NCBI RefSeq assembly: GCF_964204645.1
Contig: NC_134033.1
Span: 8,440,655-8,504,654 of the forward strand
Length of the DNA: 64,000 bases
Direction: 5' to 3'
From: Tubulanus polymorphus
Taxonomy: Eukaryota; Animalia; Nemertea
A program made the translations under genes and the position numbers. Numbering within the stretch: position 1 is the stretch's first letter; each line of letters opens with the position of its first letter. Below, piece by piece: positions 9,303 to 44,536 of this stretch. The notes beneath the pieces are model-generated. The model had not been told where the DNA came from. It worked only from the letters and a program-made list of their open reading frames with translations, and did no database searches.

Positions 9303-9326
9303 GATAGTAATTTTTTTGATTAATAA

Positions 9327-9548: not shown

Positions 9549-9576
9549 GAAGTGTATAATTTTTTTTGTTAAATAA

Positions 9577-9999: not shown

Positions 10000-10019
10000 T
10001 AATTATTTTTGCTAAATAA

Positions 10020-10454
10020 ATGGATGATAAATTTGATAATATTGATATTATTCCTCATGATATAAATAAAACTAATTTAAAAATATATTTAGAAAAACAA
10101 ATATTAGAATTTGAAAGTGACTTAAAGATAAAAAAGAAAGAATATTTAAAAAGTAAAATTATATATTATTTTATTATCAGTGGTTCAGTTACAATTAGTT
10201 CTGTAATAACATTTCTAGCAATATTCAGTCCATTAACACCTTTAGCTATATCAATTGGTGTGTTAGGATTATCATCAAGTGTTTTAACTGGTATAAGTTC
10301 AAAATTAAATATAAAAAGTAATAAAGATAAAATTACAACTAATATAAAAGAAATTAATAAATTGAAAAATACACTAGATTATATAATAAGTTTAAATGGT
10401 CATATTAGAGTTGAAGAACAAGATAAATTATTAAAAGAATTAATAGATTATTAA
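10020..10454 (+). CDS. Polinton membrane-associated protein (two hydrophobic helices between coiled coils)
   Basis: Intact 144 aa; ortholog at 37806-38240. Confidence 0.75.
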   Translation: MDDKFDNIDIIPHDINKTNLKIYLEKQILEFESDLKIKKKEYLKSKIIYYFIISGSVTISSVITFLAIFSPLTPLAISIGVLGLSSSVLTGISSKLNIKSNKDKITTNIKEINKLKNTLDYIISLNGHIRVEEQDKLLKELIDY

Positions 10455-10470
10455 TTTTTTTATTATATAA

Positions 10471-12545: not shown

Positions 12546-12561
12546 TTTTTTTATTATATAA

Positions 12562-13987
12562 ATGACAGAAAATATTCCATTAGATGATGTGGATACTTTA
12601 GATGACCCCGTGGATACTTTAGATGACCCCTCTGATATAAGCGATGATTCACAACCTAAAATTAGTGAAACAAGTTTTAATGATCCAGAATATAATTCTA
12701 ATTTAGCAAGACCTGATACTAATGAATATGTTAATAAAGCACGTTCAACATTGGATATTGAAAATGAAAATCCAGGTTTATTAAAAATGGAATTAGAATA
12801 TGAAGAATTAACTGAAAAATTTAAACCAATATTAAAAAATTCTGGTTTCAATATAACTAATAAAGGTATGAATTATTTAGTAAAAGATTTGAAATATTTA
12901 AATGGTGATTATTATTGGCATTTGAAAGATGACTATTATTTTAAGATATCTTCTAATAAAAGTCTCGATAAAATAATAACAAAACCAACTTTAATTAAAT
13001 TAGAACAATCTAGAATTAAGAAAATCAATAATGATGTTATAACTGATGTTACAGAAGAAGAGATAACTCTTAATAGAATAGAATTTAAACGAAGAAATGA
13101 TGATTTTTTGAAGATAATAAATGAAAATTTAGAACCAGAAACAATTCCTAAAGAAGTTATTAATTCTAAAACTAGTAAACTTAAATCAACCGAAGTTCAA
13201 ACTGAAAAACTTTTACAAAATGGGTTACTTGATGCAACAGATCAAGAATTAGAAGATTTAAATATATTTTCTGATGAAGCAATTAGAGAAATTATTAGTA
13301 TAAGAAATGAAGCTGATAAAATTGCACATAATAAAAGTATAAGAGATATTAAAATTATATTTTAGAAAAAGAATTGACTAATGCAAATGAAGAAATAGAA
13401 CAATTAAAGTCTGATTTAGAACGACAAGTAATTGATAAAATAGAATATAGGCAAAAGAATTACGTTTAGAAAAAGAAATTGATAATTTAAAAGATAATTT
13501 AGAAGTACAGAAAGGTGAAAGAGATATATTATTAAAAGAATTTAGAAATAATTTTAAAAGGTTAAAAGATGTTTTCAAAAGATATCTAATAAAACCAAAT
13601 TCTAAAATATCATTGAAAGATAGAATAAGATTATTATTTAAATTAGACGGTATAACAATTCTTTCAATTCTAACAGCTGTAACTATGGTATTTACAACAA
13701 TAGGTTTAGCTATATCAAATTCATTGAAATGTACTCCTACTCCAAATAAACCGGATAAACCCCCAAATGATAATAATTCTATACAAGATAAAGTTAAGGA
13801 TGGTTTGAAAAAATTAGCAAAATATTTATGGGAACTATCTAAAAAATCTGCTGCAGCTTTACCCGGAGTTATTGCATCAATTGTTGGTTTTGTTTTTAAA
13901 TCTGCAGGGAATATTCTTAACTTTGCTGCTGAACATATTATTTTATTTTTAATTACAGTTGTAAGTGAAATTATTTTTGTTAAATAA
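12562..13987 (+). pseudogene. Large acidic/coiled-coil Polinton protein with C-terminal hydrophobic segments
   Basis: Ortholog at 34917-36381; frameshifted. Confidence 0.7.
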
Positions 13988-14735
13988 ATGAGTGGGAGTT
14001 ATATAAGTCCTTCTAAGAATTCTAGAATATCTAATGCTATTAAAGCAGAAAGATCACATCATATAATTACTCATAATCCTTCAAATATTAATCCCGATGA
14101 AACTTTATATGTTAGAATCCCTAGATTAACACAAAATACTTTTTATGTTCCAAATAGTATTTATTTATCAGCTGATATAAAAGTAACCGGGTAATAATAA
14201 TAATTATGTTGTTGATAATGTTGGAAGATATTTGATTAAAAAATTAACTATAAAGATTGGTCCAGAAACAGTTTTCTCATTAGATGATTATAATTTATTT
14301 ATGCATTATAAAGATTTATGGTTAACTAAAGAAAATAGAAATAATATGATATTTCAAGGCATCCAATCAGAAAACCAAAATAAATTAAGATCTGAAGCTA
14401 ATAATGCAGTAGTAGCCAATGACGTAGATAGTTTGATTAAAAAGATTTATGGAAGCAAATATAAAATTCCATTAGACTTTGAATTGATAAATAATAATGC
14501 ACCTTTATATAAATACGCAATTCAAGAAGATGTCATATTCGAAATAACATTTGCTCCTGTAAATTGTATTGTCTAGCGTTGTTAAATATATGGGTTATAA
14601 ATTATCGAATATATGTTTAGAATATGATACAGTAACTGATGAAAATATTGCTAACTCAATTCAAACTCAATGCAATCAAGTATTTTCATTATTATATGAT
14701 TATATTGATAAATTTAAAACTGTAACTGTAAAACT
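13988..14735 (+). pseudogene. Major capsid protein of P1, 3'-truncated
   Basis: Matches the N-terminal half of the P2 MCP up to YIDKFKTVT, then joins the integrase. Confidence 0.8.
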
Positions 14736-15620
14736 ATGGTAAGTTATGTAGATCAACAGTGGCAAGGAGATTTAATTGATATTAAAAATGTTAAGAAAGA
14801 TAATGATGATTATTGGTGGATCTTAAACATAATTGATATTTTTTGTCGTTATGTATGGAGCTTCCCACTTTATAGAAAAGATGCTGCACAAACATCACAT
14901 GTTTTAAGAAAATTTCTTTCAGGTGGTAAACTAAAGCCAGAAAAAATTCAATTTGATGATGGAAAAGAATTTGATAATTCATCTGTTCATGGACTCTTAA
15001 ATGTTCATAATATTAAATATTTTTCAACAAAATCAGTTAAAAAAGCAGCAATTGTTGAACGATTTAATAGAACATTGAGAACAAGAATATCAAAATATTT
15101 CACAGCAAATAATACTTATAAATGGATTGATATTTTACCGAAATGGATAAATGGTTATAATAATTCTTATCATTCTTCAATTGGAATGAAACCTATTGAT
15201 GCTAGAAAACCTGAAAATGCTGAAATTGTTTGGAATAATTTATATGGGGCATTTCTTGTAGATGATTTTGGTGAACCTAAATTCAAAGTTGGTCATAATG
15301 TTAGAATTTCTAAATATAAAAAGATATTTGATAAAGGTTACGATCGAAATTTTACTAGGGAAATATATAAAATAAAAAAGGTAATAACAACAAAACCATA
15401 TGTCTATAAATTAGAAGATTTAAGTGGTGAAGAAGTTGACGGATATTTTTATGAAGAAGAATTAAGTTTAAGTACTGAAAATCTGGAACAAGAATATAAA
15501 ATTGAAAAAGTATTAAAAACAAAAACTATTAAAAGAAAAAAATATTCTTTAGTAAAATGGGTTGGATGGCCAGATAAATTTAATGAATGGATATTATCAA
15601 GTAAAATTAAAAATATATAA
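14736..15620 (+). CDS. int: Retroviral-like (rve) integrase with C-terminal chromodomain; N-terminus deleted
   Basis: WQGDLID, IDIFCRY, QFDDGKEF, VERFNRTL (DDE); YKIEKVL..YSLVKWVGWPDKFNEWI chromodomain. Confidence 0.9.
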   Translation: MVSYVDQQWQGDLIDIKNVKKDNDDYWWILNIIDIFCRYVWSFPLYRKDAAQTSHVLRKFLSGGKLKPEKIQFDDGKEFDNSSVHGLLNVHNIKYFSTKSVKKAAIVERFNRTLRTRISKYFTANNTYKWIDILPKWINGYNNSYHSSIGMKPIDARKPENAEIVWNNLYGAFLVDDFGEPKFKVGHNVRISKYKKIFDKGYDRNFTREIYKIKKVITTKPYVYKLEDLSGEEVDGYFYEEELSLSTENLEQEYKIEKVLKTKTIKRKKYSLVKWVGWPDKFNEWILSSKIKNI

Positions 15621-16247
15621 ATGAATAAGGAATTATTTATATTTGAACCTCATAATATGTTAATTTCTGGTGTAACAAATTGTGGAAAAACTTATTTTAT
15701 ACTAAATTTATTAGAAACTATTTATAAAAACTTTTTTGATAATATAGTATTATTTTGTCCAACATATGAATTTAATCAAACTTATGATAGAAATATTACT
15801 ATAAATAACAAATTTATTATATTAGATCCTTAAACAGTTAAAGACAATTTAGATAATTGTATTAAAATAACAATTGATATATATAAAGGATCTAATACAT
15901 TATTTATCATAGATGATTGTGCAAATTTACATGATTCAAAAATTAGAGAGAGTGAGTTATGCTATTTAGCTTTCTCTGGGAGACATTTTGGGATAACAAC
16001 TTGGGTTTTAAATCAAAAATATAATTCAATTGTAAAAGACTTTAGGGAGAATATAAGATTTCTAGTTTTATTCTACAATAAAGATAGGAAATCGATGAAA
16101 AATGCGCTTGAGGAAAATGATATTATTCCACATGATTTACATAATGAATATATGGATAAATTGAAAAATAATAAACGATCAAAATTACTATTTCGATTAC
16201 AACACCCATTTAAATATGAATTTATTCAAACTCAACTAGCTTGTTAG
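15621..16247 (+). pseudogene. A32-like genome-packaging ATPase of P1 (one premature stop)
   Basis: Walker A GVTNCGKT, Walker B FIIDD, GRH; stop at 15831. Confidence 0.88.
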
Positions 16248-16490
16248 TCTAGTTGAATTCTAGTTTTTGGTAGTTGGAAAAAAATCAAATAAAAACAACA
16301 ATATTTCAACTAGCTTGTTAATCTAGTTGAATTCTAGTTACATTCTAGTTGAAATCTAGTTGTTAGTAGTTGAAACAAAAATCAAATCTAATTCAACAAG
16401 AAATAAATAAAAACAACAATATTTCAACTAGCTTGTTAATCTAGTTGAATTCTAGTTACATTCTAGTTGAAATCTAGTTGAATTCTAGTT
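16232..16490. repeat. Tandem array of CTAG-core motifs (TCAACTAG / TTCTAGTTGAA)
   Basis: Three degenerate longer units, each built from ~11-bp subrepeats. Confidence 0.8.
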
Positions 16491-16522
16491 GCAACAACAC
16501 AACTAATTTGTTTGTTATGTAA

Positions 16523-17098
16523 ATGGGAGGTGAAAAGAAAATAAAATCTAAAAATGGTGATGTTCCCATTGAAAAAACTTTAGATGATTTAGGAATAACA
16601 GAAACAAAATTAACTCCAGATGATGGTGCTTTAAATAATGTTACAACAAATAATAATTATGAATATTATCTTTATTGCAAACATCAATTAGAAATATTAA
16701 TAGCATCTGGGAAATGTAAAAATTTGACTTATAATGAATTAGATACAATGAAATCAGATGGAATTATTAGATTATTTAAGATTTATGAAACCGCGAGAAC
16801 AGCTAGAATTAATGATGCGATATCAGAAAATGTAGTAAAAGGTTATAGTAAATTATGTAATTATATGCTGCCAATTCAAGATGAAAATAGATTATATGCC
16901 GATTTGAAAAATTATTATTTAGTTATGACTGAATTGAATAAATGGATTGGATATTTATCATTTCAATTAGGTGGATTTATGACATTATTATCAACTGGAG
17001 TTATAACATTTTCAAATATTGAAAGTAAAAATATTTCTATAATAAATGAGCAAGGTGGAAGATGTGAAGAAAAAACCGAGAAGTCCGAAACAAATTGA
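16523..17098 (+). CDS. Conserved Polinton hypothetical protein X
   Basis: IEKTLDDLGI and YEYYLYCKH shared with 29688-30296. Confidence 0.75.
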   Translation: MGGEKKIKSKNGDVPIEKTLDDLGITETKLTPDDGALNNVTTNNNYEYYLYCKHQLEILIASGKCKNLTYNELDTMKSDGIIRLFKIYETARTARINDAISENVVKGYSKLCNYMLPIQDENRLYADLKNYYLVMTELNKWIGYLSFQLGGFMTLLSTGVITFSNIESKNISIINEQGGRCEEKTEKSETN

Positions 17099-17386
17099 AT
17101 GGTCTCGGCAATTAGAAATTAAATCACAAGAATATAAAAAGCTGTAAAAGAAAAAATAAGTAATAAAAATGGTGAAAATATTGTTATTTCTACTCCTTCT
17201 AATAATAGAATATTTGATAAATATCTATATTTATAGCTGGATTTGTAATTGTATTCATTTTGATTGGGTGTAGTTGGTATAAGAAATCAAATAAAATTCA
17301 TTATATTAATAATTCTGAAACAACTGCTATTAAAAATGAAAATACTTCTGAAATTCCAAAATTGACAATAAAAAAAAATGGATTAA
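17046..17386 (+). pseudogene. Basic small protein Y with TM segment
   Basis: VKKKPRSPKQIEW matches VKKKPRSEKQIIW of 30289-30657. Confidence 0.65.
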
Positions 17387-17455
17387 TATTTTAGAAAAAA
17401 GCAAAAAAAATAATTTTTTTTAAATTTATTGAATATCACCATGTGGGAAATGAAA

Positions 17456-17899
17456 GTGATGAGGGGTGTCTCGTACTCTCGTACTCTGGTATGAAATGAG
17501 TTATTTCACTCACACTTTACTCACACTTTTATGTTTAAAAATCTAATTTTAATCAACTCGTTAATTACTCGTCACTTTTCTAAAATATGAGTTATTTCAC
17601 TCACACTTTACTCACATTTTTATGTTTAAAAATCTAATTATTTTACTTATATTTTTATTCGAAATCTGTTAAAATATGAATTATTTCTCACACTTTACTC
17701 ACACTTTTGTAATTAACGTATAAATGATTTTATATGTTTTATAAATGATTTTAAAATAAATGAAATTCATGCAAATAATGTTCATTTATATGAAATTATT
17801 AAGAGTAATAGGGAATTGAGGCTTTCATTCTAGAGGGAGAGAGGTTGAGTGAGCTCGACCTCCGACCTCCATATCTGAAAGCCCACTTTTCCTATTACT
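17456..17899 (-). repeat. Right TIR of P1
   Basis: Reverse complement of 1096-1521. Confidence 0.93.
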
Positions 17900-26735: not shown

Positions 26736-26935
26736 GCCCTATCGATCCAGTCTGCTAGTATCATAATACGAAGTGACTACTGGAACGAACCCGTACGCTT
26801 ACTTCCGCAAATTAATGGTACGTACACCGTACCACAGCGCCACCTAGGCTATACACAGCGCCACCTACACAGGAAGTTGTTTGACACCAGACTGAAGAAG
26901 GGTTGACGGTATATCCAGGACTGAAAAGTCACCTC

Positions 26936-27498
26936 AGTAATAGGGGTAATGGGCTTTCAGGCCAAAGGTCGAAGGGTCGAGCTCATTAAAAAACAAAACA
27001 TTAAAAGTAATTTAAAACTATAATATATTTTCATAACCGTGTGTATTTTATATTATAACTAAATATTTATTCTAAGATATCAATAATTTAAATTTAAAAA
27101 GCATATTGTATTAAATCAATTGGTCGCTCCACTTCGCTACAGCTCCGCTCCGCGACCAATTGATTTATTTACAATACACAAATTCATATAATCAAATATA
27201 TTTTAATAATAATAATAATTATTATTCTATTATTCAACTGAAATACACACGGTTATGAAAATATATTATAGTTTTAAATTACTTTTAATATTTTTTTTTA
27301 ATGAACTCGACCATTCAACCTTTAACCTGAAAGCCCATTACCCCTATTACTCTTAAAATAATCATATACATGAATACATTTAAATTGACAGATTATTCAA
27401 TATAAAAGTATATATTTACAACATTATTTCAATATTCATATTTGTGTGAGTAAGATTTTTAAACATTAAAAGTGTTAGTAAAGTGTGATTGAAATAAT
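26936..27498 (+). repeat. Left TIR of P2, including ~416-bp imperfect palindrome 26936-27351
   Basis: Reverse complement of ~44537-45094. Confidence 0.93.
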
Positions 27499-28249
27499 GC
27501 ATAGCTGTTTATACTAGAACATGATTCTATTTGAGCCTATATACATTTCATGTAATGAACGATTGAATAAATCTATACATTCACAGCTGTTACAGCTGTT
27601 ACTATGACGCCGAGACATATGAATCATTATTGCAAACGTGTAGAGAACACTCTAGAACCGGAACCAGATGACGTGGCAAGAAATGAACAGACGCTGTAAC
27701 ATTGTGCTCAGGATATTCTATCTATTGAAACGAAATTAGGAGTTTATAGTTTACAATTCTAAATCTTAATGTAAGTACTGTTTTTTGTAGTTATTAGGGC
27801 TATTAAATATGAAACCTCTAGATATATTTAAGTGTATTTAGTAATCTTTTAGATGGCTAGAGTTGCCGCTAATATCTTTTAGATTAATAAAACGCCATAC
27901 GCATCAAGAAGTGATAGAGAAACTCAAGATACTCTTTCTGACTGAGGAATCAACAGCAATGGGGATATCGAACCAATAGAAATTAGCACAAGAAACACAA
28001 GAATCGCCAAAAGATCGACGAAGAAACTATATAAGAATTTCAAAAACATTAAGACTCCAATGATTAAGTTTAACATTTGTTGATGTAGTTAAATATTTAC
28101 CAGCAATTGAAAAAATGTTTGTAATTATAAATTGTATTTATAGAAATCAAATGATGTATTGGAAGAAACGGCCGAACAACTTGTATAATGTATTGTGTAA
28201 ATCCGATTGGTGAATTTTTATGTTCGGTCGTTTCTATTCAGAATGAATA

Positions 28250-28580
28250 TATAATTAGGATTAGCGCATGCGCATTGATCAAAAGTGCGCACGAATGCGC
28301 GGTTTGCTCAGTGGTATGATTTAGATATTTCATGTCGGTTGTTTCTATTTACATAATTATATATTCATTATGTAAATATAATTATGATTAACGCATGCGC
28401 ATTAAGCAAAAGCGCGCATGAATGCGCGGTTTGCCTAATGCGAACACTTTTAGATATTTCATGTCGGTTGTTTCTATTTTACACAATTTACATAATTATA
28501 TATAATTATGATTAGCGCATGCGCATTAAGCAAAACCGCGCACGAATGCGCGGTTTTGCCCAGTGGTATTATTTAGATAT
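28250..28580. repeat. Three ~125-130-bp tandem repeats with GCGCATGCGC cores
   Basis: Repeated TTAGCGCATGCGCATT..AAAA..GCGCACGAATGCGCGGTTT. Confidence 0.8.
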
Positions 28581-28706
28581 CAAGGAATCGAAACAACTTA
28601 TCAAAAGCAGCGAGGAATGAAAAAGGATGACGTTGGTCGAAGAAACGGAAGAGGATTCTAAAATATTAACCAATTTAGTAAAAATACAATAATATAAGTA
28701 TAATAA

Positions 28707-29396
28707 ATGGAACAAGAACAACCACAAATTATCAATATTACAAATAACACTGCCGGTGTTATAAATATATACTACAAGAAGTGTTCTAAATGTGAATTAG
28801 ATAAATTAGCTTTAACAGAATTTAGTAAGCGTAAGATTAGCAAAGATGGTTTTCAATATTGCTGTAAAACTTGTTTTAAACTATATACCAAACAATACCG
28901 AGAAGATAACAACAAGAAGATAGAACATTATAATTATTATATGGCAGAATATATGAGAGAAAGATATCAAACAGATCTTAATTTTAGATTGAACCAATGC
29001 TTAAGATCTAGATTAACACAATTATTCAACAAAGAAACACATTCAGAAACACTATCTAATCTATTGGGTTGTTCAGATGAATTTCTCAAATCATGGATTA
29101 CATTTCAATTCGATGATAAAATGAATATAGATAATTACGGGGATTATTACCATATTGATCACGTGTTACCAATATCTAGATTTAACATGAATGATGAATA
29201 CAATAAAAAACTTATTTGGGGTTGGAAAAATTTAAGGCCTTTAGAAAAGAAAGAAAATCAAATAAAATCTAATAAACTAGATTTACAGTTATATTTAGAA
29301 CAGTTAACAAAGGCAAAGAAATTTATTGATCAATGGAACAATGATCCAAATAATGAACAATACGTTGAGGAATTTGATATCAAGGATCCGAAATGA
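28707..29396 (+). CDS. Zn-ribbon plus HNH-like endonuclease of the type seen in large DNA viruses
   Basis: CSKC..FSKRK.SKDG...CKTC; LLGCS..FLKSWI..QF; NYGDYYHIDHVLP...NLRPL...N..KSNK. Confidence 0.7.
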   Translation: MEQEQPQIINITNNTAGVINIYYKKCSKCELDKLALTEFSKRKISKDGFQYCCKTCFKLYTKQYREDNNKKIEHYNYYMAEYMRERYQTDLNFRLNQCLRSRLTQLFNKETHSETLSNLLGCSDEFLKSWITFQFDDKMNIDNYGDYYHIDHVLPISRFNMNDEYNKKLIWGWKNLRPLEKKENQIKSNKLDLQLYLEQLTKAKKFIDQWNNDPNNEQYVEEFDIKDPK

Positions 29397-29687
29397 CTTA
29401 TCTGGACAGTTATAATTACTGCTCCTAATAGATAAACGAAAGTAGTGAGATATCAAATAGAATTAGAAACAATAACTTCAACTAGCCATTATTTCTATTT
29501 TAATTTTTAATATTTTCTTTTACAATTCTTTTCAAAAGAGAATACTTTATATCGCAAATAAAAAATACTAAAAAAACAATAACTAATACTAAAATTCTTT
29601 ACCTTTAACTAACTAGTATTAATCTAAAGAGATACTGGTATCATTTTATAATACTTATATTTTTTTTCGCTTTTTTCTCTAATATAA

Positions 29688-30296
29688 ATGTCAAAGAAAT
29701 CGAGTAAGAATAGTATTGATATTGAAAAGACATTAGATGATTTGGGTATAAGTGATAATAAAGACACAGCTGTAACTAATTGTGCTCAAGTTAATTGTAA
29801 TATAGATTATGAATACTATTTATATTGTAAGCATCATCTAGAACTATTGATTGCCGGTGGAAAAACTAAAGAGTTTTTAAATAGAATCATTACTTTTCAA
29901 GAACTAGACTCTATGAAACCAGATAAAGTAATAAAATATTTTAAGATTTATGAAGAAGCTAGATTAGCTAGAATAAATGATTCTATTTCAGATGGTATTG
30001 TCAAATGTAATTCTAAGTTATGTAACCAGTTAATACCAATTGATGATGAAAATAAATTATATAGTGATTTGAAAAATGACTACTTAGTTATGACTGAATT
30101 ACAAAAATGGGTTGGTTATGCTTCATTCCAATTAGGATCGGTTATGACATTAATTTCTACTGGCGTCATAACATTTTCGAACATCAAGCCTATAGAATAT
30201 AAATCAGGTAAGAACGAAACAGATGACGCTGTACTACAACCAAACGTCGAAACAGAAAATGAATCAGAACAAAAATTAACTAAAATAAATGAGTGA
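29688..30296 (+). CDS. Conserved Polinton hypothetical protein X
   Basis: Ortholog of 16523-17098. Confidence 0.75.
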   Translation: MSKKSSKNSIDIEKTLDDLGISDNKDTAVTNCAQVNCNIDYEYYLYCKHHLELLIAGGKTKEFLNRIITFQELDSMKPDKVIKYFKIYEEARLARINDSISDGIVKCNSKLCNQLIPIDDENKLYSDLKNDYLVMTELQKWVGYASFQLGSVMTLISTGVITFSNIKPIEYKSGKNETDDAVLQPNVETENESEQKLTKINE

Positions 30297-30657
30297 TAGC
30301 GTTAAGAAGAAGCCTAGATCTGAAAAACAAATTATATGGGCAAGAGAATTAGGGAAAAGATCTTCAGAATTAAAAAAAGCTAAGAAAAAGAAATTAACTG
30401 ATATAAATGAAACACAGACTTTATCTGATATTAATTCAAATAATAATCCATCTGATTCTTCTAATGCTGGAAGTAATTATAAATTATATATTAAAATTGG
30501 ATTAGTAACAGTTATTATATCATCCGGTGTAATATATAAATCAAAATTCAAATGTGATGATAAAGATGATTCCAATGATAATAAACCTATCATACCAGAA
30601 AATAAATCAAATGATAAAGTCATTGAAAATAAACCAAGATTATTATTAATGGATTAA
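30289..30657 (+). CDS. Basic small protein Y with TM segment
   Basis: Ortholog of 17046-17386. Confidence 0.7.
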   Translation: MSDSVKKKPRSEKQIIWARELGKRSSELKKAKKKKLTDINETQTLSDINSNNNPSDSSNAGSNYKLYIKIGLVTVIISSGVIYKSKFKCDDKDDSNDNKPIIPENKSNDKVIENKPRLLLMD

Positions 30658-30663
30658 AATAAG

Positions 30664-31779
30664 ATGAAAAAAGAACAATATTTAAGAGATTTATATTATA
30701 ACCCAGAAAGTGAAGTATCATATTCTAACGTTTCAGAATTATGGAATAAAATAATTAAATCTGATAATGAAAATGGTGCCGTACGGCACCCACATGGTGA
30801 TATAAAATATAGTGAATTGAAATCATGGTTACAAAATCAACCAACATATCAAATCCACAAGAAAATGGATAAAACTTATTTAACAAGAAAAGTTATGGTT
30901 TCATATATCGATCAACAATGGCAAGCAGATTTAATTGACATGATGAACTTAGAGGAATACAACAAAGGATATTTCTGGATATTAAATGTTATAGACATAT
31001 TCAGTAGATACGCATAGTCAATTCCAATCAAAAATAAAACTGGAATAGAAGTTACAAATGCTTTTAAGAATATATTTAAAGAAGCTATTCCAGATAAGAT
31101 ACAATTTGATGAAGGTAAGGAATTCTATAACAAACATTTCAAAAAACTATTATCTGATAACGATGTAAAATATTTTTCAACACATTCAGATAAAAAAGCA
31201 TCTATTATAGAAAGATTTAATAAAACATTGAAAACTAGAATGTGGAAATATTTTACTGCTAATGAAACATATAAATATATCGATGTGTTAGATGATTTGG
31301 TGAAAGGTTATAATAATTCTAAACATAGTTCTATAAATATGAAACCTATACAAGCTAGAAAAGAAGATAATTCGGAAATAGTTTGGAATAATTTATATGG
31401 AGCATTTGTTACACATGATTTCGGAGAACCTAAATTTAAAATAGGACAACACCTAAGAATATCTAAATATAGAAAAACATTTTATAAAGGTTATACCCCT
31501 AATTTTACAGAAGAAATATTTAAAATTAAAAAGATAATATTAACTAAACCTTTTGTTTATAAATAAGAAGATCTAAAAGATGAAGAAATATTAAGTTATT
31601 TCTATGAACAAGAAGTATCACTTGTACCAAATCCAGATGAAATAGAATACAAAATAGAAAAAGTATTGAAAACAAAAACTCTTAAAGGAAAAAAGTATTC
31701 TTTGGTGAAATATAAAGGATACGATGATAAATTTAATGAATGGATTTTATCTAGTAAAATTAAAAGAATAAATGAATAA
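30664..31779 (+). pseudogene. int: rve integrase with chromodomain of P2 (two in-frame stops)
   Basis: LYYNP, WQADLID, QFDEGKEF, IERFNKTL; stops at 31015 and 31564. Confidence 0.9.
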
Positions 31780-32383
31780 AGATTTATTTATATTTGAACC
31801 GCATAATATGTTAATAACTGGAGTAACCAATTGTGGTAAAACACATTTCATATTAGACTTGTTAGAAACTGTTTATAAAAACTATTTTGATAATATAGTA
31901 TTATTTTGTCCAACGTATGAATTTAATCAAACTTATGATAGAAATATTACTAGAAATAATAAATTTATTATATTAGATCCTAAAACAGTAAAAGAAAATT
32001 TAGATAATTGTATAAAAATAGCAATTGATACTTATAAAGGATCAAATACATTATTCATTATAGATGATTGCACAAATTTACATGATTCAAAAGTGAGAGA
32101 AAGTGAGTTACGTTACTTAGCTTTCTCTGGGAGACATTTTGGGATAACAACATGGGTTTTAAATCAAAAATATAATTCAATTGTTAAAGACTTTAGGGAG
32201 AATATAAGATTTCTAGTTTTATTTTATAACAAAGATAAAAAATCTATGCAACAATCATTGGAAGAAAATCAAATTATACCTACTGAATTACATGATGAAT
32301 ATATGAATAAATTAAAGAATAATAAAGGTTCAAAATTATTACTGAGATTACAATTTCCCTATGAATATAAATTTATAAAATAA
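31772..32383 (+). CDS. A32-like packaging ATPase of P2
   Basis: GVTNCGKT, FIIDD, SGRH, LNQ; intact. Confidence 0.9.
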   Translation: MNKDLFIFEPHNMLITGVTNCGKTHFILDLLETVYKNYFDNIVLFCPTYEFNQTYDRNITRNNKFIILDPKTVKENLDNCIKIAIDTYKGSNTLFIIDDCTNLHDSKVRESELRYLAFSGRHFGITTWVLNQKYNSIVKDFRENIRFLVLFYNKDKKSMQQSLEENQIIPTELHDEYMNKLKNNKGSKLLLRLQFPYEYKFIK

Positions 32384-32389
32384 CTATTT

Positions 32390-32700
32390 GTATACCTATG
32401 TATCTAATACGTATTTAATACGTATCAAATACGTATTAAATACATTAATACTTAAAACCCCCTTTTTTAAAATAAATATTATTCATATAATTTTCAACCA
32501 ATTTATTTTTATTTTTTTCAACAAATATATGAATAAGTTTGAAAATAATAAAGGTTATTTATTATTACTGAGGTTTCAATATAAATTTAAAAAAGAAATA
32601 TGATTTAAGGTATTTTCAAATGATACGTATTAGATACGTATTAGATATGTATTAAATACGTATTAGATACCTTAATACTTAAAACCCCCTTTTTTATTTA
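32390..32700. repeat. Two blocks of 11-bp ATACGTAT-core repeats, each followed by TTAATACTTAAAACCCCCTTTTTT
   Basis: Visible at ~32400-32468 and ~32622-32695. Confidence 0.8.
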
Positions 32701-32729
32701 CTATTATTTTATACAATTTTCAACCTTTA

Positions 32730-33617
32730 TTACTTTTTGAGTGTTAGATAATTACTTTCTGAATCACTTTCATCATCACTCTCCAATTCATCATCAGACC
32801 CTAACAATTTATTCAAATGCTCTACCGTATCTTCATAAATAATTGGTTTATTGATATACTTATAAGTCATCTCAACTATATCTTTATTTTGTGATTTAAG
32901 TTTGATAGAATCTTTATTATCAATATGCTTATCTGTTACTATATCACCATGTGGGTGCCATACGGCGCCATTTTCATTATCATCTTTCTTAGTGTTTGAC
33001 CTTAATATTGTATTTACAATGCTTGATTCTAGTATTTTTTTAGCAGCAGATAAATCTAATTCATCATTACTAGGTTCCTTAGATAAAAATTCACCTAATA
33101 AATCTTTATATAAATCTTTACCATCTACTTTTTTATTTGAAACAAACTTTGTAACATAATTAAATGGGTGTTCTATAAATTCTCTTATACCAACACGATC
33201 TATTACATTAATAATATGTGAATTTGTATTCATATGATTATTCCAATTTGATGGAGCGTTTGAAAATTCACCTTTACAATATTCACAATAATTTCTATTT
33301 TCACTAACATTTAATATTATTGCATTATTAGATGTAGAAGGTATTACATTATTAGATGTAGAAGGTATTGCATTATTAGATGTAGAAGGTATTACATTAT
33401 TAGATGTAGAAGGTATTACATTATTATCAATTACATTACTTAAATTATCAACAACACCACTTTTATTATTATCGATTTCTATTAGTTTAGTTTTATAAAT
33501 TTTGAAAATAGGATCAAATATCAAAGCTATATTACAAGGTATTACATAATACAAACCATCATTATTTTCATGTGTATCGATGTATGGAATATGTTTATAT
33601 ACTTTACCTCCTTCCAT
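32730..33617 (-). CDS. P2 accessory protein Z (NNVIPSTS repeats, C2H2-like finger)
   Basis: Intact 295 aa; 24-bp repeat x4; YCEYC..HMNTNSH. Confidence 0.65.
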   Translation of the reverse strand: MEGGKVYKHIPYIDTHENNDGLYYVIPCNIALIFDPIFKIYKTKLIEIDNNKSGVVDNLSNVIDNNVIPSTSNNVIPSTSNNAIPSTSNNVIPSTSNNAIILNVSENRNYCEYCKGEFSNAPSNWNNHMNTNSHIINVIDRVGIREFIEHPFNYVTKFVSNKKVDGKDLYKDLLGEFLSKEPSNDELDLSAAKKILESSIVNTILRSNTKKDDNENGAVWHPHGDIVTDKHIDNKDSIKLKSQNKDIVEMTYKYINKPIIYEDTVEHLNKLLGSDDELESDDESDSESNYLTLKK

Positions 33618-33649
33618 TTACATAATAAATTTTTATTAAAGTTAAAATT

Positions 33650-34896
33650 TTAATACATAACACTATCTAATTGTGAATTTACAATATTTAATTGTGCGTC
33701 AGATATAATATAAATGTGCATTTCAAAATTTTTGATTCCTTTATTCTTTGTCATGAATAATTGTATTCCATCTTTAGTGTTCTGTAATTTTTTTCCAGAA
33801 CCATGTAATGAATTATCCTCTGTTGTTCTAAAATCTAACCATAATGCATATTTATTACCGGTATAATAATCAATTTGATTAATGTTACAATTTTCAGATG
33901 ATTTTACTTTTTCATTCATAAAATGTTTTCTAATTTCTGGCCATTGATCAATCATTCTCATTCCTTGACAAAATATTTTATTTGCTATTCCTTCGATAGT
34001 TATTTCTACTTTTGTTATTTCAGGATTATAATAATTATCAACATTTATTGCGCCATTAGTATATGTTGCAATGGTAAAAAATATTAATATACCTTTAATA
34101 GATCTTCTTGGGAAGTTAATATTCTCATTAATAATTTCATCATTTGCATTAATAGTTACAGTTTTAAATTTATCAATATAATCATATAATAATGAAAATC
34201 CTTGATTGTATTTAGTTTGAATTATACTTGAAATATTTTCATCAGTTACTGTGTCATATTCTAAACATATATTCGATAATTTATAACTCATTTCTTTATT
34301 AACGCTAGATATTACAATTTCATTTACAGGAGCAAATGTTATTTCGAATATAACGTCTTCTTGAATTGCGTATTTATATAAAGGTGCATTGTTATTTATC
34401 AATTCAAAGTCTAATGGAATTTTATATTTGCTTCCATATATACTTTTTATCAATTTATCTACAGCATTAGTTAATATTGCGCTATTAGCTTCTGATCTTA
34501 ATTTATTTTGGTTTTCTGATTGGATGCCTTGAAATATCATATTATTTCTATTTTCTTTAGTTAACCATAAATCTTTATAATGCATAAATAAATTATAATC
34601 ATCTAATGAGAAAACTGTTTCTGGACCAATCTTTATTGTTAACTTTTTAATCAAATATCTCCCAACATTATCAACAACATAATTATTATTATTACCGATT
34701 ACTTTTATATCGGCTGATAAATAAATACTATTTGGAACATAAAAAGTATTTGTGTTAATCGAGGAATTCTAACATATAAAGTTTCATCAGGATTAATATT
34801 AGAAGGGTTATGAGTAATTATATGATGTGATCTTTCTGCTTTAATAGCATTAGATATTCTATGATTCTTAGAAGGATTGATATAACTCCCACTCAT
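33650..34896 (-). pseudogene. Major capsid protein (double jelly-roll type) of P2; one frameshift near 34740
   Basis: ~415 codons; THNPSNINPDETLYVRIP, YNPEITKVEITIEG and YALWLDFRT..LHGSG resemble invertebrate Polinton MCPs. Confidence 0.8.
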
Positions 34897-34916
34897 TTAT
34901 TTAACAAAAAAATTAA

Positions 34917-36381
34917 TTATTTATTTTTTATCATGTTTACTAAACCAAAAATAATAGCACTTACAACTGTAATTAAAAATAAAATAATATGTTCAGCAGC
35001 AAAGTTAATAATGTTTCCTGCAGATTTCAATATAAAACCAACAATTGATGCAATAATTCCTGGCAATGCTGCAGCAGATTTCTTTGATAGTTCCCATAAA
35101 TATTTTGCTAATTTCTTTAAACCATCTTTAACTTTATCTTGTATAGAATTATTATCTGGAGGTTTATCTGGTTTCTGGAGGTTTATCTGGTTTATTGGGA
35201 GTAGGAGTAGATTTCAAAGCATTTGATATAGCTAAACCAATTGTTGTAAATAACATAGTTACAGCTGTTAGAATTGAACGAATTGTTATTCCTTCAAACT
35301 TAAATAATAATTTTATTCTATCTTTTAGTGATATGTCAGAATTTGGTTTTAGTATTAACTCTTTAACAACAACTTTTAATCTATTAATACAATAATCATA
35401 TGATTTTAATAATAATTTCATTTTTTCTTTCTGAAATTCTATGTTATATTCTAAATCATCAATTTCTTTTTCTAAATATGCATTTCTTTTTTTAAATTCA
35501 ATTTCTTCAATAACTTTAAATTCTCTATCTAATTTTAATTGTTCTAATTCTTTTCTGGTGTCAAATAATTTATTTTCTAAAGGTTTAATTTTATTATATC
35601 TAATATGTTTTTCGCGCGCAATTTTATCAGCTTCATTTCGTATACTTATCATTTCTCTAATTGTTTTTTTAGAAAACATACTTAAAGCTTCTATTTCTTG
35701 ATCTGTTGCATCAAGTAATCCATTCGGTAAAAGTTTTTCAGTTTGAACTTCGTTTGAGTTAAGTTTACTAGTTTTGGAAGTTTTATTCTGTTCAGAAGTT
35801 GTTTCCGGTTCTAAATTATTATCGATTGTTTCAAATAAGTCATTAATTCTTTGTTTAAATACTCTTTTATTTTGATTTATTTCTTCTTGTGTTACATCTT
35901 CAATTTTATTACTATTTATTATTCTCTTAATTCTAGATAGTAATGAGTCAGACTTAAGCAAAGTTGATTTTGCTATTATTTTGTCTTGATTTTTATAAGA
36001 GATGTTAATATAATAATCATCTTTCAATTTATAATAATATTCACCATCTAAAAACTTTAATTCTTGTACTAAAAGTCTGGCGCCTTTATCATTTATATTA
36101 TATCCAGAATCTTTAAATACATGTTGAAAATCATACATAAATTCAATATTTTCTAAATTTTGTCTTGATAAACCTTGATTTTCATTTTCAGGATTTATTC
36201 TCGATCTAGTCCTTCTATCAAATTCATCTGTTGATGGGGCTTTAGAACCACTATCTGCTAAATTAGAATTATATGCTGATTCATCATCATTATCAATATA
36301 AGTTTCATTAAAATCAGGTTGTGGTTCATCACTTATACCAGGGGCGTCACCAAAAGTAACCAATGGAATTTCTTCATCCAT
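34917..36381 (-). pseudogene. Large coiled-coil/membrane protein (frameshift near 35165)
   Basis: Ortholog of 12562-13987. Confidence 0.7.
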
Positions 36382-36397
36382 TTATATAATAAAAAAA

Positions 36398-37789
36398 TTA
36401 AAATTTAAAATATAATATTCAATATATAATATACAAGTTATAGCTAATTTTGCATTTTCATGGGATTTATTATCATCATTTAGTTTAATTATATCATGTT
36501 AATATTATCAGTTTTAAAATTTTCTGATGTATTGTAATCTTTTATTTTAGAATCATTATTTAATTTAATATTATTAGTTTTAGTTTCTGTTGATTGAATG
36601 TGTTTTTTATTTTTTTAACCTTCCATTAATTTTGGAGCAGTGATAATCTTTTTATTTATATCATTCAATCCAAATGAATTATTTATTGTTGCAGTTTTAA
36701 TTAGATTATTATAACCAATTATATTTCCCATCTTTAATACTAAATCATTAGAAATAATAAATAGATTAGGGCCTATACAATAATTTAATCTAATATGTGA
36801 TTTATCTAAATAATTTTGATATCTTACAATGTTTTCCGGAATCGATCTATTTTTATCATTATGAATAGAATCTTCAAATAATACTTTGAATTGTTTCTGT
36901 GTATCAAATGATGTATTTAAATTTCCAATTATTGGGGATCTTGTTTCAACTTGCGCACCTAAAATACATATCGAATAAGTTCTAATAGATTGATTTATTC
37001 TTTGTATTCCAGCTTTAGTAAAACCTTCACTATTTTCTAAAATAAAATTAACCCAACCATCATTATTTTGTTGTTGTTTGATATAAATATAATATTTTGG
37101 TATTTCATTCCATTCAAACGTTTTTGAGTTTGTATTTTTTATTTCTTTTCTATATTTTTAGTATAAGGCACAGCAAAACCTCCGATTGGAAATGATGAAT
37201 TATTCATTGCATCCAAAGCTTTCTCTACTTTAGATAAATCTCCCCCTGTAATTGTTCCCATCTTTGATCTAAAATCAGAATTATTTATATCTATATTAAA
37301 TTCATTACATATTTTATAATACTATAATAAATTAATGTTATTATCTAATTCTTTAAAATATCTAGACCCTGGTAAAGGACACTCTAATTCATTTAATATT
37401 AATCTTATTTGAAAGTATGTATGAAATCTAAAGAGTGATAATATTAATGGTAAACTTGGTTTATTTAAATGATCATTCCAACTTATTCCGCATCCTGTTG
37501 TTGCGCAATAAACAGCAAAATTTAATTGGTTTTGCCAGAATTGCATATTTGATTTTAACATCCATAATTTTGCTTTACTTAATTCTTTTTCAAAATTAAT
37601 TTCATAAACATTGAATATATTTTCCATCTTTACATGAAAACTATTACTTTCAGTAACATAAATATATAAATCAATTAATGAATTTAAAACTTCATTTCTA
37701 TATGTAATATCTTTATTAAAATATATTGCTGGAATATTATATTTAATTGATTTATTATATTGGAAAGCTTTTGGAAAACTATCTGCCAT
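36398..37789 (-). pseudogene. Conserved WQNQLNFAVYCATTGCG protein
   Basis: Ortholog of 10471-12545. Confidence 0.75.
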
Positions 37790-37805
37790 TTATATAACTA
37801 AAAAA

Positions 37806-38240
37806 TTAATAATTAACTAATTCTTTTAATAATTTATCTTGTTCTTCAACTGTTATATGGCCATTTAAACTTATTATATAATCTAGTGTATTCTTTAATT
37901 TATTAATTTCTTTTATATTAGTTTTAATTTTTTCTTTATTACTTTTTATATTTAATTTTGAACTTATACCAGTTAATACACTTGAACTTAATCCTAATAC
38001 ACCAATTGATATAGCTAAAGGTGTTAATGGGCTGAATATTGCTAAAAATGTTATTACAGAACTAATTGTAACCGAACCACTTATAATCAAATAATATATA
38101 ATTTTAGATTTTAAATATTTTTTCTTTTTAACTTTTAAGTCACTTTCAAATTCTAATATTTGTTTTTCTAAATATGTTTTTAATTTAGTTTTACTGATAT
38201 CATGAGGAATAATATCAATATTATCAACTTTATCATCCAT
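37806..38240 (-). CDS. Polinton membrane-associated protein
   Basis: Ortholog of 10020-10454. Confidence 0.75.
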   Translation of the reverse strand: MDDKVDNIDIIPHDISKTKLKTYLEKQILEFESDLKVKKKKYLKSKIIYYLIISGSVTISSVITFLAIFSPLTPLAISIGVLGLSSSVLTGISSKLNIKSNKEKIKTNIKEINKLKNTLDYIISLNGHITVEEQDKLLKELVNY

Positions 38241-38260
38241 TTATTTAGTAAAAAAAATTA

Positions 38261-38678
38261 CTAATTAGTAAACTTATAAGCAACAAATATAACAATAACA
38301 GTTCCGCCTAAAATCCATATTATTTCATATTTCTTCTGTTCATTACTTTGGGTATAATAATCTGATAATTTAGGTTTGTATAGATTTTTCTTTATTGGTT
38401 ACCGCGTTATATGAACTCATTGCATCATCAACTGATTGAAAATCTCTATGTGAAATCTTCTGATCATATAATTCCTTGTTAATATAATCCATATAGTTTT
38501 GCCTCTTTTCTCTATATTCTTCTGCTGCTTTATTATATTTCTCTAATGCTAAGTTATGTCTTTTTTGTTCTGTTAATGAACCATTTTTATCAATATGCTT
38601 AAATAAATATCCGCCACCAGTAAATGCTAAAGCGTTAACAATTGCCGATCCTATAATAGTTACAGCAGCAGAAGCCAT
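38261..38678 (-). pseudogene. Small hydrophobic protein (frameshift)
   Basis: Ortholog of 9577-9999. Confidence 0.75.
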
Positions 38679-38702
38679 TTATTTAGTAAAATAATTACGC
38701 AT

Positions 38703-38924
38703 TTATATGGGAGGAATATATTTTTGTTTTTCCAAATAATCAATAGTTAAATTAGATAAAGTTACTGCTAATGTTAATTTTAAAATATCATTTATATCAA
38801 ATCTATCAACATTAACACTTCCCATTTTAAATACTTTTTTTAATGCCATTGAATAACCAACAGTTCCAACTGATAGTAATGCGCCATTATATAATCCAGT
38901 TATTATCCACTTATTATCACTCAT
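38703..38924 (-). CDS. Small hydrophobic protein
   Basis: Ortholog of 9327-9548. Confidence 0.75.
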   Translation of the reverse strand: MSDNKWIITGLYNGALLSVGTVGYSMALKKVFKMGSVNVDRFDINDILKLTLAVTLSNLTIDYLEKQKYIPPI

Positions 38925-38978
38925 TTATTTATCAAAAAAATTACTATCATCAAAATATTTAGTTAACTCATTTATGAA

Positions 38979-39263
38979 TTATTCAACATTTTTTTCATTA
39001 CTAGTTTCATTTGTATATATTTCAATTATTATTTTTTTAATATCATCAATAATTCCATCTTCATTTAATTCATAATATTCTAAAGGTGATTTGATTAAAT
39101 CAATTACTTTTTCTATATTATAATTTTCTTTATTAATCATTGATGCATTGTTAAATGATTTACTTTTTATATCAGTAATTACATCATTTAGTTTAATTCT
39201 CATTTCTTTACCATGTTTAAAATCAAACCCAAAACATATACTCGGTCCAACAGTTATATTCAT
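38979..39263 (-). CDS. Small hypothetical protein
   Basis: Ortholog of 9000-9302. Confidence 0.7.
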   Translation of the reverse strand: MNITVGPSICFGFDFKHGKEMRIKLNDVITDIKSKSFNNASMINKENYNIEKVIDLIKSPLEYYELNEDGIIDDIKKIIIEIYTNETSNEKNVE

Positions 39264-39280
39264 TTATATAGTGAAAAAAA

Positions 39281-40040
39281 TTACTCTCTACATCTTATAA
39301 CTAATTCATAAATTACAGGGAAATTATTTAAATCAATTAAGTATCCATTGTGATTTCTAATTTCTAATCTAAAATTATTAAAACGAGGAATGCATGGTTT
39401 GAAATCACATTCTGTTAAATTATAATTTATTTGCGTTCCAAATTCTTTAACATTCTTCAATGGTAAAATGTTTAGTAAACCAGAATTACAAGTTATATCT
39501 TTAGTTGCTTCGAATGTTTTTGTAGGATCGATTAAATTGCAATAGATATAAAAGTGTGTAAAAGGTATTAAGTTTGGTGTAGCATCAATATTTGTAAAAG
39601 ATTTATCTGGAGGAATTCCTAACAGTTTAGCTATAGGTTTTTTTTACCATAAATGCATGTATTTCACTATTAGACAACCTTATCTTTATTTTGTCAGTAC
39701 TCTCACTTTTTAAAAATCTAATATTTAACCCGGAATTATTACCTGACTTGTGCCAGGCTTTTCTATTAATTTCTTGTGCCAATGTATCTAAATTATATAA
39801 CCCCGGTTTTAAATATATATAGGCCCATTCATTTTTATTTTTATTAAAAATTAAAAAAGCTCTATGTTCAATAGTTTTATCCGATATATTATAAAAAGAA
39901 TTACATAAACTTATATTAACTAATTTTAAATCGACACAATTCTTAAATTCTCTATCTAATTGTACTAGTAAATTATGTGATTTATAATCTGTAAGTCTTC
40001 TAGAATCAACAAATATTCTGTATTCTTTTAATTCCACCAT
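39281..40040 (-). pseudogene. Putative minor capsid protein of P2 (frameshift in an A-run)
   Basis: Ortholog of 8197-8983. Confidence 0.6.
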
Positions 40041-40093
40041 TTATTTTACATATTTTCTTATTCGAAATCTATTTCATGGTGCCCCTTTTCATT

Positions 40094-40411
40094 CTAACCT
40101 TTGTATACGAAATAGAAATCTCCAGAACATAATTCTTCTAAGTCTTCACTTGATAAACTATGAAATCTATCCGGTAAATATGTTCTGAATTTATACGTAT
40201 TTCCTTTTAATCCTTCATATTCTAAGTGTATAACTAATTCATCTCCATAATTATTAGTAACTGTATCCATATTTGTAATTAGATATTTCTTATGGATTGT
40301 TAATTCCGTTAACTTTTTGAATTTATAATCTACAGATTTTACATTTGTTATATCTTTAATTCTCTCTAGAAATAATTTGTTGTTCTCACTGTGTGTTTGT
40401 TTACTCTCCAT
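40094..40411 (-). CDS. Small hypothetical protein, possibly an OB-fold ssDNA-binding protein
   Basis: KLTEL...Y.I....VTNNYG..LVIHL...TYLPDRF pattern; immediately downstream of polB; fold is a guess. Confidence 0.4.
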   Translation of the reverse strand: MESKQTHSENNKLFLERIKDITNVKSVDYKFKKLTELTIHKKYLITNMDTVTNNYGDELVIHLEYEGLKGNTYKFRTYLPDRFHSLSSEDLEELCSGDFYFVYKG

Positions 40412-40440
40412 TTATTATACATATTTTTATTAAAATTTGA

Positions 40441-44478: not shown

Positions 44479-44536
44479 TTTAATACTAAAATTTTTATTA
44501 AAATTGATTTTAGAAGTTCAATGATTTATATCATGT

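What the first reader, a model, noticed from the sequence alone, without database searches (positions are those of the whole stretch)
26936..27351. P2 TIRs begin with a ~415-bp imperfect palindrome (giant terminal hairpin)
Seen: AGTAATAGGGGTAATGGGCTTTCAGG at 26936 is mirrored by CCTGAAAGCCCATTACCCCTATTACT ending at 27351. The arms pair through AT-rich, partly mismatched stems to a GC-rich apex (TTGGTCGC-TCCACTTCGCTACAGCTCCGCTCC-GCGACCAA). The same structure is at 44685-45094, so the terminal sequence occurs four times per element. Known: the standard Polinton model is protein priming at simple TIR ends, whereas incompletely paired hairpin termini characterise poxviruses and parvoviruses. Inference: the free genome may have fold-back ends, or extra internal origin/integrase sites.
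Basis: partly seen in the sequence, partly recalled or inferred. Interest (0 to 1): 0.75.

Follow-up and report, generated by a model that had tools for sequence, protein, structure and literature searches.

The report
Fold-back hairpin ends of Maverick elements
Both ends of this virus-like Maverick (Polinton) element begin with a 410-416-base imperfect palindrome, a design shared in shorter forms by several distant relatives, which is predicted to fold on the strand carrying the 3' end and likely serves as the start signal for the element's own protein-primed DNA polymerase, a role untested so far.

Summary
Real and not chance (z about -23). P2 (26936-45094, 6-bp TSD) is a Maverick/Polinton whose TIRs begin with 416/410-nt imperfect palindromes flush with the ends. 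Neighbour P1 has a 96-nt version, reads from an independent run show 120-155-nt versions, and distant pPolB relatives (24-41% identity) have 68-174-nt versions; 5 of 12 ends in a uniform test had none. Arms covary (21 of 62 pairs in one phased family) while a bulge and a tandem G·A apex persist. In 10 of 10 hairpin types the 3'-end strand is the G-richer one, giving G·T, G·A and GNA-loop folds as in Streptomyces telomeres and parvovirus ends. No flip/flop pair was seen (4 of 4 elements alike at both ends; 9 of 9 family-C ends), and host flanks were seen only at the outer copy. This argues against closed poxvirus- or AAV-type ends and extra integrase sites. Best reading (0.5): a single-strand 3' fold-back origin for terminal-protein priming. 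Terminal palindromes are already reported in virophages/PLVs (2026 preprint), and this scan noted similar hairpins on other DNA.

The parts
26936..45094 (.). P2, a Maverick/Polinton of 18,159 bp; several genes broken
   Evidence: TIRs, TSD, pPolB, integrase, A32 ATPase
26930..26935 (+). left target-site duplication CACCTC
45095..45100 (+). right target-site duplication CACCTC
26936..27502 (+). left TIR, about 565 bp
   Evidence: 97.9% identical to 44533-45094
44533..45094 (-). right TIR
26936..27351 (-). left terminal palindrome, 416 nt; the - strand is the 3'-end strand here and folds better (-129.8 vs -121.1 kcal/mol)
44685..45094 (+). right terminal palindrome, 410 nt, same isoform; the + strand is the 3'-end strand
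27000..27049 (.). 50-bp perfect stem, pairs with 27240-27289
27112..27167 (-). 16-bp inner stem and 24-nt apex; on the 3'-end strand the apex is GNA triplets spaced by GC/GT and holds the only GCGNAGC mini-hairpin motif per TIR in the element
   Evidence: motif properties from PMC13037366 passages
27343..27356 (-). inner copy of the terminal motif followed by CTTAA, the same in P1
40441..44478 (-). protein-primed PolB gene starting just inside the right TIR; vOTU-like and HNH/EndoVII-like motifs; broken by two frameshifts near 43630 and 42740
   Evidence: Pfam PF03175 E 7e-15
30664..31771 (+). retroviral-type integrase gene, broken
   Evidence: 62% identical to the P1 rve ORF
31772..32383 (+). 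A32-like packaging ATPase
   Evidence: PF04665 E 4.5e-13
33650..34878 (-). probable major capsid protein gene (label recalled from position and motif, no library hit), frameshifted near its start
   Evidence: 35% identical to the 412-aa ORF of L120
28707..29396 (+). stand-alone HNH/endonuclease VII-like ORF
   Evidence: phrog_1035 E 6.6e-15
1096..17899 (.). P1, related Maverick (73-87% DNA identity), TSD AACAGA, TIR about 447 bp
1096..1191 (-). P1 left terminal palindrome, 96 nt
   Evidence: z -4.8
17804..17899 (+). P1 right terminal palindrome, 96 nt, same isoform
   Evidence: z -5.7

Best explanation
P2 is an integrated Maverick/Polinton whose two ends each begin with an imperfect palindrome flush with the terminus, a design kept in several distant relatives; it is predicted to fold when the element's DNA is single-stranded, on the strand bearing the 3' end, and likely acts there as the origin structure on which the element's terminal protein and pPolB start the second strand. 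Shown: the palindromes, their spread, arm covariation, kept imperfections, strand polarity, single orientation, use of the outer end for integration. Inferred: strand-displacement replication or single-strand excision exposes the 3'-end strand. Its last bases pair with the inner copy and give a local duplex origin capped by a G·A/GNA apex, without needing the 18-kb panhandle between TIRs. Protein priming at the true 3' end copies the palindrome in its original orientation, which explains the absence of flop. Stem length is free to drift (68-416 nt) while the end pairing and the apex are kept.
For: Flush palindromes in P2, P1, 120-155-nt read variants, L046, L041/L042 (contig-truncated), three AC-ended variants in G001 and L120. 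Phased covariation: 21 of 62 pairs change on both sides among 4 AC-family ends (3 variants), while an unpaired C and a tandem G·A apex stay in 4 of 4; 8 of 43 pairs in the L046/L041/L042 set. P2 family reads: 6 of 9 outer-stem variants have the complementary variant at the mirror site (p 4e-6, unphased). Polarity: G exceeds C on the 3'-end strand in 10 of 10 hairpin types; mismatches there are A·G 38, G·T 28, G·G 7 against C·T 10, A·C 9, C·C 0; the next 150 nt have the opposite skew in 12 of 13 ends. Single orientation. L120 and L032 share integrase (89%), capsid-like ORF (92%) and ATPase (86%) but have different pPolBs (22-24%) and unrelated palindromes. pPolB keeps the vOTU motif linked to terminal-protein priming (bioRxiv 2024.03.18.585575 passages). 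Precedent: Streptomyces 3' overhangs fold back with sheared G:A loops and are primed by a terminal protein (PMC4513846 passages).
Against: No experiment; no free genome seen. 5 of 12 ends in the uniform test lack a flush palindrome (family D, one family-C variant, contig starts of L024, L074, L028; the three contig starts may not be true ends), so it is not required for all Mavericks. Polarity is weak in P1, C50 and C9ac (+1 to +2); only about 7 lineages are independent (1/128); part of the mismatch tally comes from poorly aligned AT-rich stretches and from the weak L017 fold. G·T excess could come from deamination on one strand. A flush-paired 3'-OH is a ready self-primer, which this model must suppress. 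The pPolB/end swap is one pair, and nematode Polintons keep their TIRs across a pPolB swap (PMC10748475 passage). Covariation shows that the hairpin forms, not what for.
Confidence: 0.5

Rival explanations
1. Self-priming hairpin: the folded 3' end primes second-strand synthesis directly, as in parvoviruses and as proposed for Halocafeteria virophages/PLVs, and is resolved asymmetrically, perhaps by the HNH/EndoVII-like or VSR-like nuclease fused into pPolB.
For: The 3'-OH is paired flush with template ahead. A kept bulge resembles the MVM left-end bubble, and that end is reported in flip only (PMC1185569 passages). pPolBs carry HNH (P1, P2, L032, L046) or VSR-like (L120) motifs; that these families cut branched or mismatched DNA is recalled. 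38 reads join mirror sites on opposite strands.
Against: Simple hairpin transfer gives flop ends, not seen. Terminal AGT/AC repeats and the TP-vOTU architecture point to protein priming. HNH is also present in families without flush palindromes (family D, L024, L074). No Rep/HUH hit among 45 ORFs scanned.
Confidence: 0.2
2. Structure read by the integrase or an excision nuclease: the hairpin base marks the exact element boundary on single-stranded host DNA.
For: The hairpin base coincides with the terminus. An 89%-identical integrase serves two unrelated end sequences, as if shape mattered more than sequence.
Against: Only the 3'-end strand is favoured, whereas excising one strand needs a signal at both of its ends. 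Inner copies were not seen as integration ends. The end sequence follows pPolB in the one swap seen.
Confidence: 0.12
3. Neutral by-product: template switching at the ends, or a palindromic MITE inserted in a short hairpin, with the arms homogenised by intrastrand repair.
For: The centre of P2 is bounded by TTAA on both sides and varies in length. Palindromic MITE-like elements are common in this window and in relatives' hosts. Homogenisation alone gives covariation.
Against: Apex depth (about 1,300) does not exceed arm depth (1,900-3,700), so there is no excess of free centres. The centre occurs nowhere else in the window. Repair would erase, not keep, the bulge and tandem G·A. It would not give one-strand polarity in unrelated end sequences.
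Confidence: 0.1
4. Covalently closed, poxvirus-like hairpin telomeres in the free genome.
For: AT-rich, incompletely paired stem of similar scale. The odd junction in L003 has end motifs facing outward from a palindrome.
Against: Integrated copies carry the whole palindrome with the TSD at its outer edge, in one orientation; no flip/flop. The polymerase is protein-primed type. No resolvase or telomere resolvase hit, apart from HNH-like domains.
Confidence: 0.04
5. An RNA hairpin in transcripts running outward through the ends (terminator, small-RNA source or decoy).
For: G·U and tandem G·A also stabilise RNA; family C has a GAAA loop.
Against: Genes next to the TIRs of P2 and the G001 elements point inward. 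GNA mini-hairpins are far less stable as RNA (PMC13037366 passage).
Confidence: 0.04

Closest known systems
Maverick/Polinton termini (vertebrate survey PMC8097293, passages; Kapitonov and Jurka 2006 recalled, not held)
   Same: 6-bp TSD, TIRs of a few hundred bp, AG...CT ends, pPolB, integrase, ATPase; AGT- and AC-type end motifs.
   Different: No palindrome or hairpin is mentioned in that paper's main text (0 hits). Here the TIR itself begins with a self-complementary 96-416-nt unit. P1/P2 start AGTAAT, not (AGT)2.
Terminal palindromes of Halocafeteria virophages and PLV subtype 4 (bioRxiv 10.64898/2026.07.28.741278, section 7 read)
   Same: Palindromes inside TIRs next to the TSD, proposed to fold into hairpins.
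   Different: 52 nt in the example given and preferentially in non-pPolB elements, modelled as self-primers. Here they are in pPolB Mavericks, up to 416 nt. The section read reports no strand polarity, covariation or orientation.
Streptomyces/Rhodococcus invertron telomeres (PMC4513846, PMC7276702, passages)
   Same: Terminal-protein-primed linear replicons whose single-stranded 3' end folds back on an internal complement, with sheared G:A loops; the GCTXCGC motif occurs at the P2 and L120 apices.
   Different: Bacterial, several short palindromes, primed by Tap/Tpg end patching after internal replication; no sequence or protein homology shown. Convergence at most.
Parvovirus terminal hairpins (PMC1185569 passages) and poxvirus flip/flop telomeres (recalled; title seen)
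   Same: Imperfect terminal hairpins; kept asymmetric bubble as in the MVM left end.
   Different: They self-prime or are covalently closed and need NS1/Rep or a resolvase; AAV and poxvirus ends come as flip and flop, which were not seen here.

Membership tests
Maverick/Polinton | protein-primed PolB gene | tested here: met
   PF03175 E 7e-15; vOTU motif; gene frameshifted in this copy
Maverick/Polinton | retroviral-type integrase | tested here: met
   P1 rve hit above cutoff; P2 copy 62% identical, broken
Maverick/Polinton | TIRs, AG...CT ends, 6-bp TSD, 13-25 kb | tested here: met
Maverick/Polinton | packaging ATPase | tested here: met
   PF04665 E 4.5e-13
Maverick/Polinton | [quoted passage not shown] | tested here: inconclusive
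   No Pfam or PHROG hit; candidate named from recall; no fold was run
Maverick/Polinton | maturation protease | tested here: inconclusive
   No hit among 45 ORFs of at least 100 aa; may be broken or absent
AAV/poxvirus-type hairpin ends | flip and flop isoforms | tested here: not met
   4 of 4 elements alike at both ends; 9 of 9 family-C ends flip; no full-flop letters at 15% of reads
AAV/poxvirus-type hairpin ends | Rep/NS1 nickase or telomere resolvase gene | tested here: not met
   none among 45 ORFs; only HNH/EndoVII-like domains
AAV/poxvirus-type hairpin ends | covalently closed or self-primed ends in the free genome | not testable with these tools
   needs episomal DNA
Actinomycete invertron telomere | 3' strand folds back on an internal complement with sheared G:A loops | tested here: met
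   predicted only:
Actinomycete invertron telomere | Tap/Tpg end patching after replication from an internal origin | tested here: not met
   no such genes among the ORFs scanned; a pPolB instead. It works alike at most and is not a member

The most novel reading that the evidence does not exclude
Many Mavericks carry folded single-strand telomeres: a 3' fold-back with G·T, tandem G·A and GNA mini-hairpin features, convergent with actinomycete telomeres and parvovirus ends. Each pPolB class reads its own hairpin, so ends and polymerase are swapped together as a replication module, and the HNH or VSR nuclease fused into pPolB nicks the mismatched hairpin to release or resolve the genome.
Probability: 0.3. 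Interest if true: 0.82.

Novelty: new variant of a known kind. Interest (0 to 1): 0.63.

Why it matters
How Mavericks excise and replicate has, to my knowledge (recalled), not been shown experimentally, and the standard model assumes plain TIR ends. A conserved, strand-specific, covarying end structure gives a concrete origin substrate that can be tested with short oligonucleotides. It offers a possible role for the nucleases fused into pPolB, for which the passages read in PMC10748475 give none. It would also link eukaryotic protein-primed viruses to folded-telomere priming in actinomycetes.

Tried and rejected
No host assembly was held, so copies could not be phased genome-wide. A pattern for the inner end found 0 matches in viral contigs and 1 in metagenome contigs, a chance hit in a bacterial ORF (L004). 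The first pPolB scan gave 3 loci without ends. Of 76 pPolB loci screened for inverted repeats, most hold no terminus. Cluster look-ups gave no host names. Run X1 (share 0.14) had only 2 short pieces laid and is no evidence of habitat; Logan contig depths were not used as copy numbers. A link between the HNH domain and palindromes was rejected: HNH is also in palindrome-less families. Families C and D in G003 have ragged ends without a clear TSD, so their termini are approximate. My first family-C orientation count could not have seen flops and was redone anchored on the inner flank. The 38 opposite-strand joints could be central inversions or library fold-back chimeras; undecided. PDB search of a full-length homologue gave nothing relevant. 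The capsid label stayed unconfirmed. Kapitonov and Jurka 2006 was not held. No earlier notes exist for this genome.

Full report
Observation. The palindrome is present as described. P2 spans 26936-45094 with TSD CACCTC and TIRs of about 565 bp, 97.9% alike. The first 416 nt (410 at the right end) fold at -121 and -118 kcal/mol, z about -23, with 0 of 100 shuffles as good. The last base pairs with the inner copy, so the hairpin is flush with the terminus. Both ends are the same isoform.

The element. Pfam finds a protein-primed PolB and an A32 ATPase in P2 and an rve integrase in P1 (45 ORFs scanned); the P2 integrase is a broken copy, 62% identical to P1's. The pPolB gene starts just inside the right TIR, has vOTU-like and HNH/EndoVII-like motifs and is broken by two frameshifts. 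It is a Maverick/Polinton; the capsid label is recalled and unconfirmed. No assembly was held.

Same family. P1 (1096-17899, TSD AACAGA, 73-87% DNA identity) begins with a 96-nt palindrome ending in the same motif plus CTTAA (z -4.8, -5.7). In an independent raw-read run (X6, 12% read) 2,426 reads leave the outer boundary into unlike flanks (agreement 0.35), which indicates many insertions ending at the outer copy. No such cluster is among the 6 rows shown for the inner copy (154 hidden). About 70 reads in 7 listed joints skip 311-327 nt of the centre. Where the letters between are given (32-38 nt) they form their own stem, so hairpins of about 120-155 nt also exist. Of 9 variants at 15% or more in Watson-Crick positions of the outer stem, 6 have the complementary variant at the mirror site (p 4e-6). 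I left out sites mismatched in the window copy and the degenerate centre, and 2 rows were hidden. Reads are unphased and some cross between arms. Apex depth (about 1,300) is below arm depth, so the centre is not an abundant free MITE.

Distant relatives. A pPolB alignment fetched 29 viral-contig and 47 genome-contig loci; most lack ends. Where ends were found:
- L032/G001:C67 (41% pPolB identity) has 159-nt palindromes at both AC-type ends, with 118- and 114-nt variants in two other copies.
- L120 (G001:C9:291-15427, TSD TAGGAA, 24%) has 174-nt AGT-type palindromes.
- L046 (39%) has 129 nt and L041/L042 a truncated homologue.
- G003 family C has a near-flush hairpin of about 68 nt, and L017 a weak 158-nt fold.
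- In the uniform test of 12 ends, 5 were negative: family D, one family-C variant, and the contig starts of L024, L074 and L028.
The design is widespread, not universal.

Covariation and kept flaws. Among the 4 AC-family ends (3 variants, two nearly identical), 21 of 62 predicted pairs change on both sides. An unpaired C at column 20 and a tandem G·A/A·G under a 2-bp stem and variable triloop stay in 4 of 4. The L046 set shows 8 of 43. Homogenisation explains covariation but not flaws that survive it.

Strand polarity. Aligning arms by Watson-Crick matches only, mismatches read on the strand ending in the element's 3' terminus are A·G 38, G·T 28 and G·G 7, against C·T 10, A·C 9 and C·C 0. G exceeds C on that strand in 10 of 10 hairpin types (+1 to +22), whereas the next 150 nt skew the other way in 12 of 13 ends. 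About 7 lineages are independent (1/128), P1 is nearly neutral, and deamination could supply the G·T part but not the tandem G·A. The P2 apex on this strand is a run of GNA triplets with a GCGGAGC motif, the only such motif per TIR in the element. A variant in 35% of reads at 27131 gives GCGAAGC, also present at the L120 apex. GCGNAGC is a very stable DNA mini-hairpin with a sheared G·A, resistant to 3' exonuclease and much weaker as RNA (PMC13037366 passages).

Orientation. P1, P2, C67 and L120 have the same isoform at both ends. The two further AC ends and the three L046-type ends agree with their relatives, and family C is 9 of 9 flip. In reads, only 1 of the 5 inner-arm A>G changes that a full flop would bring is listed at 15%. 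Thirty-eight reads join mirror sites on opposite strands; these are rare central inversions or library chimeras. AAV-type hairpin transfer and poxvirus-type closed ends are therefore unlikely; MVM-type asymmetric resolution is not excluded (PMC1185569 passages).

A natural swap. L120 and L032 share integrase (89%), capsid-like ORF (92%), ATPase (86%) and a 142-aa ORF (99%). Their pPolBs are 22-24% identical (VSR-like versus HNH motif) and their palindromes are unrelated. The end sequence went with the polymerase. This is one pair, and nematode Polintons kept their TIRs across such a swap (PMC10748475 passage).

Mechanism. Best reading (0.5): on displaced or excised single strands the 3' end folds back into a local duplex origin with a G·A/GNA cap, on which terminal protein and pPolB initiate, preserving orientation. 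The closest working model is the Streptomyces 3' overhang, where Palindrome I pairs internally and G:A-closed hairpins are bound by the priming machinery (PMC4513846 passages); the GCTXCGC motif of Rhodococcus telomeres (PMC7276702 passages) matches the apex motif in the same polarity if that motif is written on the 5' strand (recalled). This is likeness of working, not membership. Rivals: self-priming with asymmetric resolution 0.2, integrase/excision signal 0.12, neutral or MITE origin 0.1, closed ends 0.04, RNA hairpin 0.04.

Novelty. A 2026 preprint reports terminal palindromes in virophages and one PLV subtype, mostly without pPolB, and models self-priming (10.64898/2026.07.28.741278, passages and section 7). 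End/replicase module turnover is proposed in PMC11296320 (passages). This scan noted end hairpins in Giardia Polintons and in a polymerase-less Maverick (unchecked). Searches aimed at Maverick ends and term look-ups in PMC8097293, PMC10748475, PMC11131425 (0 hits for palindrome or hairpin) and 10.64898/2026.10.13.758929 (one legend hit) found no report of long flush palindromes in pPolB Mavericks, nor of their polarity. Kapitonov and Jurka 2006, Repbase entries and all supplements were not seen and may mention them. Verdict: new variant of a known kind, interest 0.63.

Noticed in passing
L003:4657-4840: A 184-nt palindrome just upstream of pPolB has the end motifs facing outward (ACTACT before, AGTAGT after), the reverse of all other cases; possibly a genome junction with a hairpin outside the termini, or an assembly artefact.
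   Followed up: no
L093 near 7060-7120 and L097 near 7875-7950 (G003 families C and D): The pPolB genes appear to be interrupted by a GT-AG spliceosomal-type intron at the same motif in two families with ragged ends and no clear TSD.
   Followed up: partly
window 5253-6378: The P1 pPolB carries an intein-like insertion of about 1 kb absent from P2 (PF14890 E 1e-5, below cutoff).
   Followed up: no
window 6833-7174 (-): P1 has a weak VLTF3-like ORF (PF04947 E 3e-4, below cutoff).
   Followed up: no
window 28707-29396: P2 has a stand-alone endonuclease VII/HNH-like ORF.
   Followed up: no
window 1340-1480, 17500-17710, 27453-27503, 44538-44584: A repeat of about 45 nt shared by P1 and P2 lies in the inner part of the TIR, several copies in P1 and one in P2; candidate promoter or factor site just upstream of pPolB.
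   Followed up: no
window 58398-58906, 60817-61204, 61130-61366: Three unrelated long palindromes (237-509 bp, 75-88%) that look like palindromic MITEs.
   Followed up: no
window 32398-32445 and 32627-32670: Short AT-rich inverted repeats where the two gene blocks of P2 converge; possible terminator region.
   Followed up: no
window 10598-12229: An 817-bp tandem duplication (99.5%) inside P1; the L032 element has a 4.7-kb internal duplication.
   Followed up: no
L081:169-464 (G001:C9): L120 sits 8 bp from the end of another Maverick, so two terminal hairpins abut.
   Followed up: no
G001, G002, G003 and loci L031-L077: Many prokaryote-labelled MAGs hold eukaryotic Maverick-bearing contigs; G003 gave 177 pPolB matches.
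   Followed up: partly
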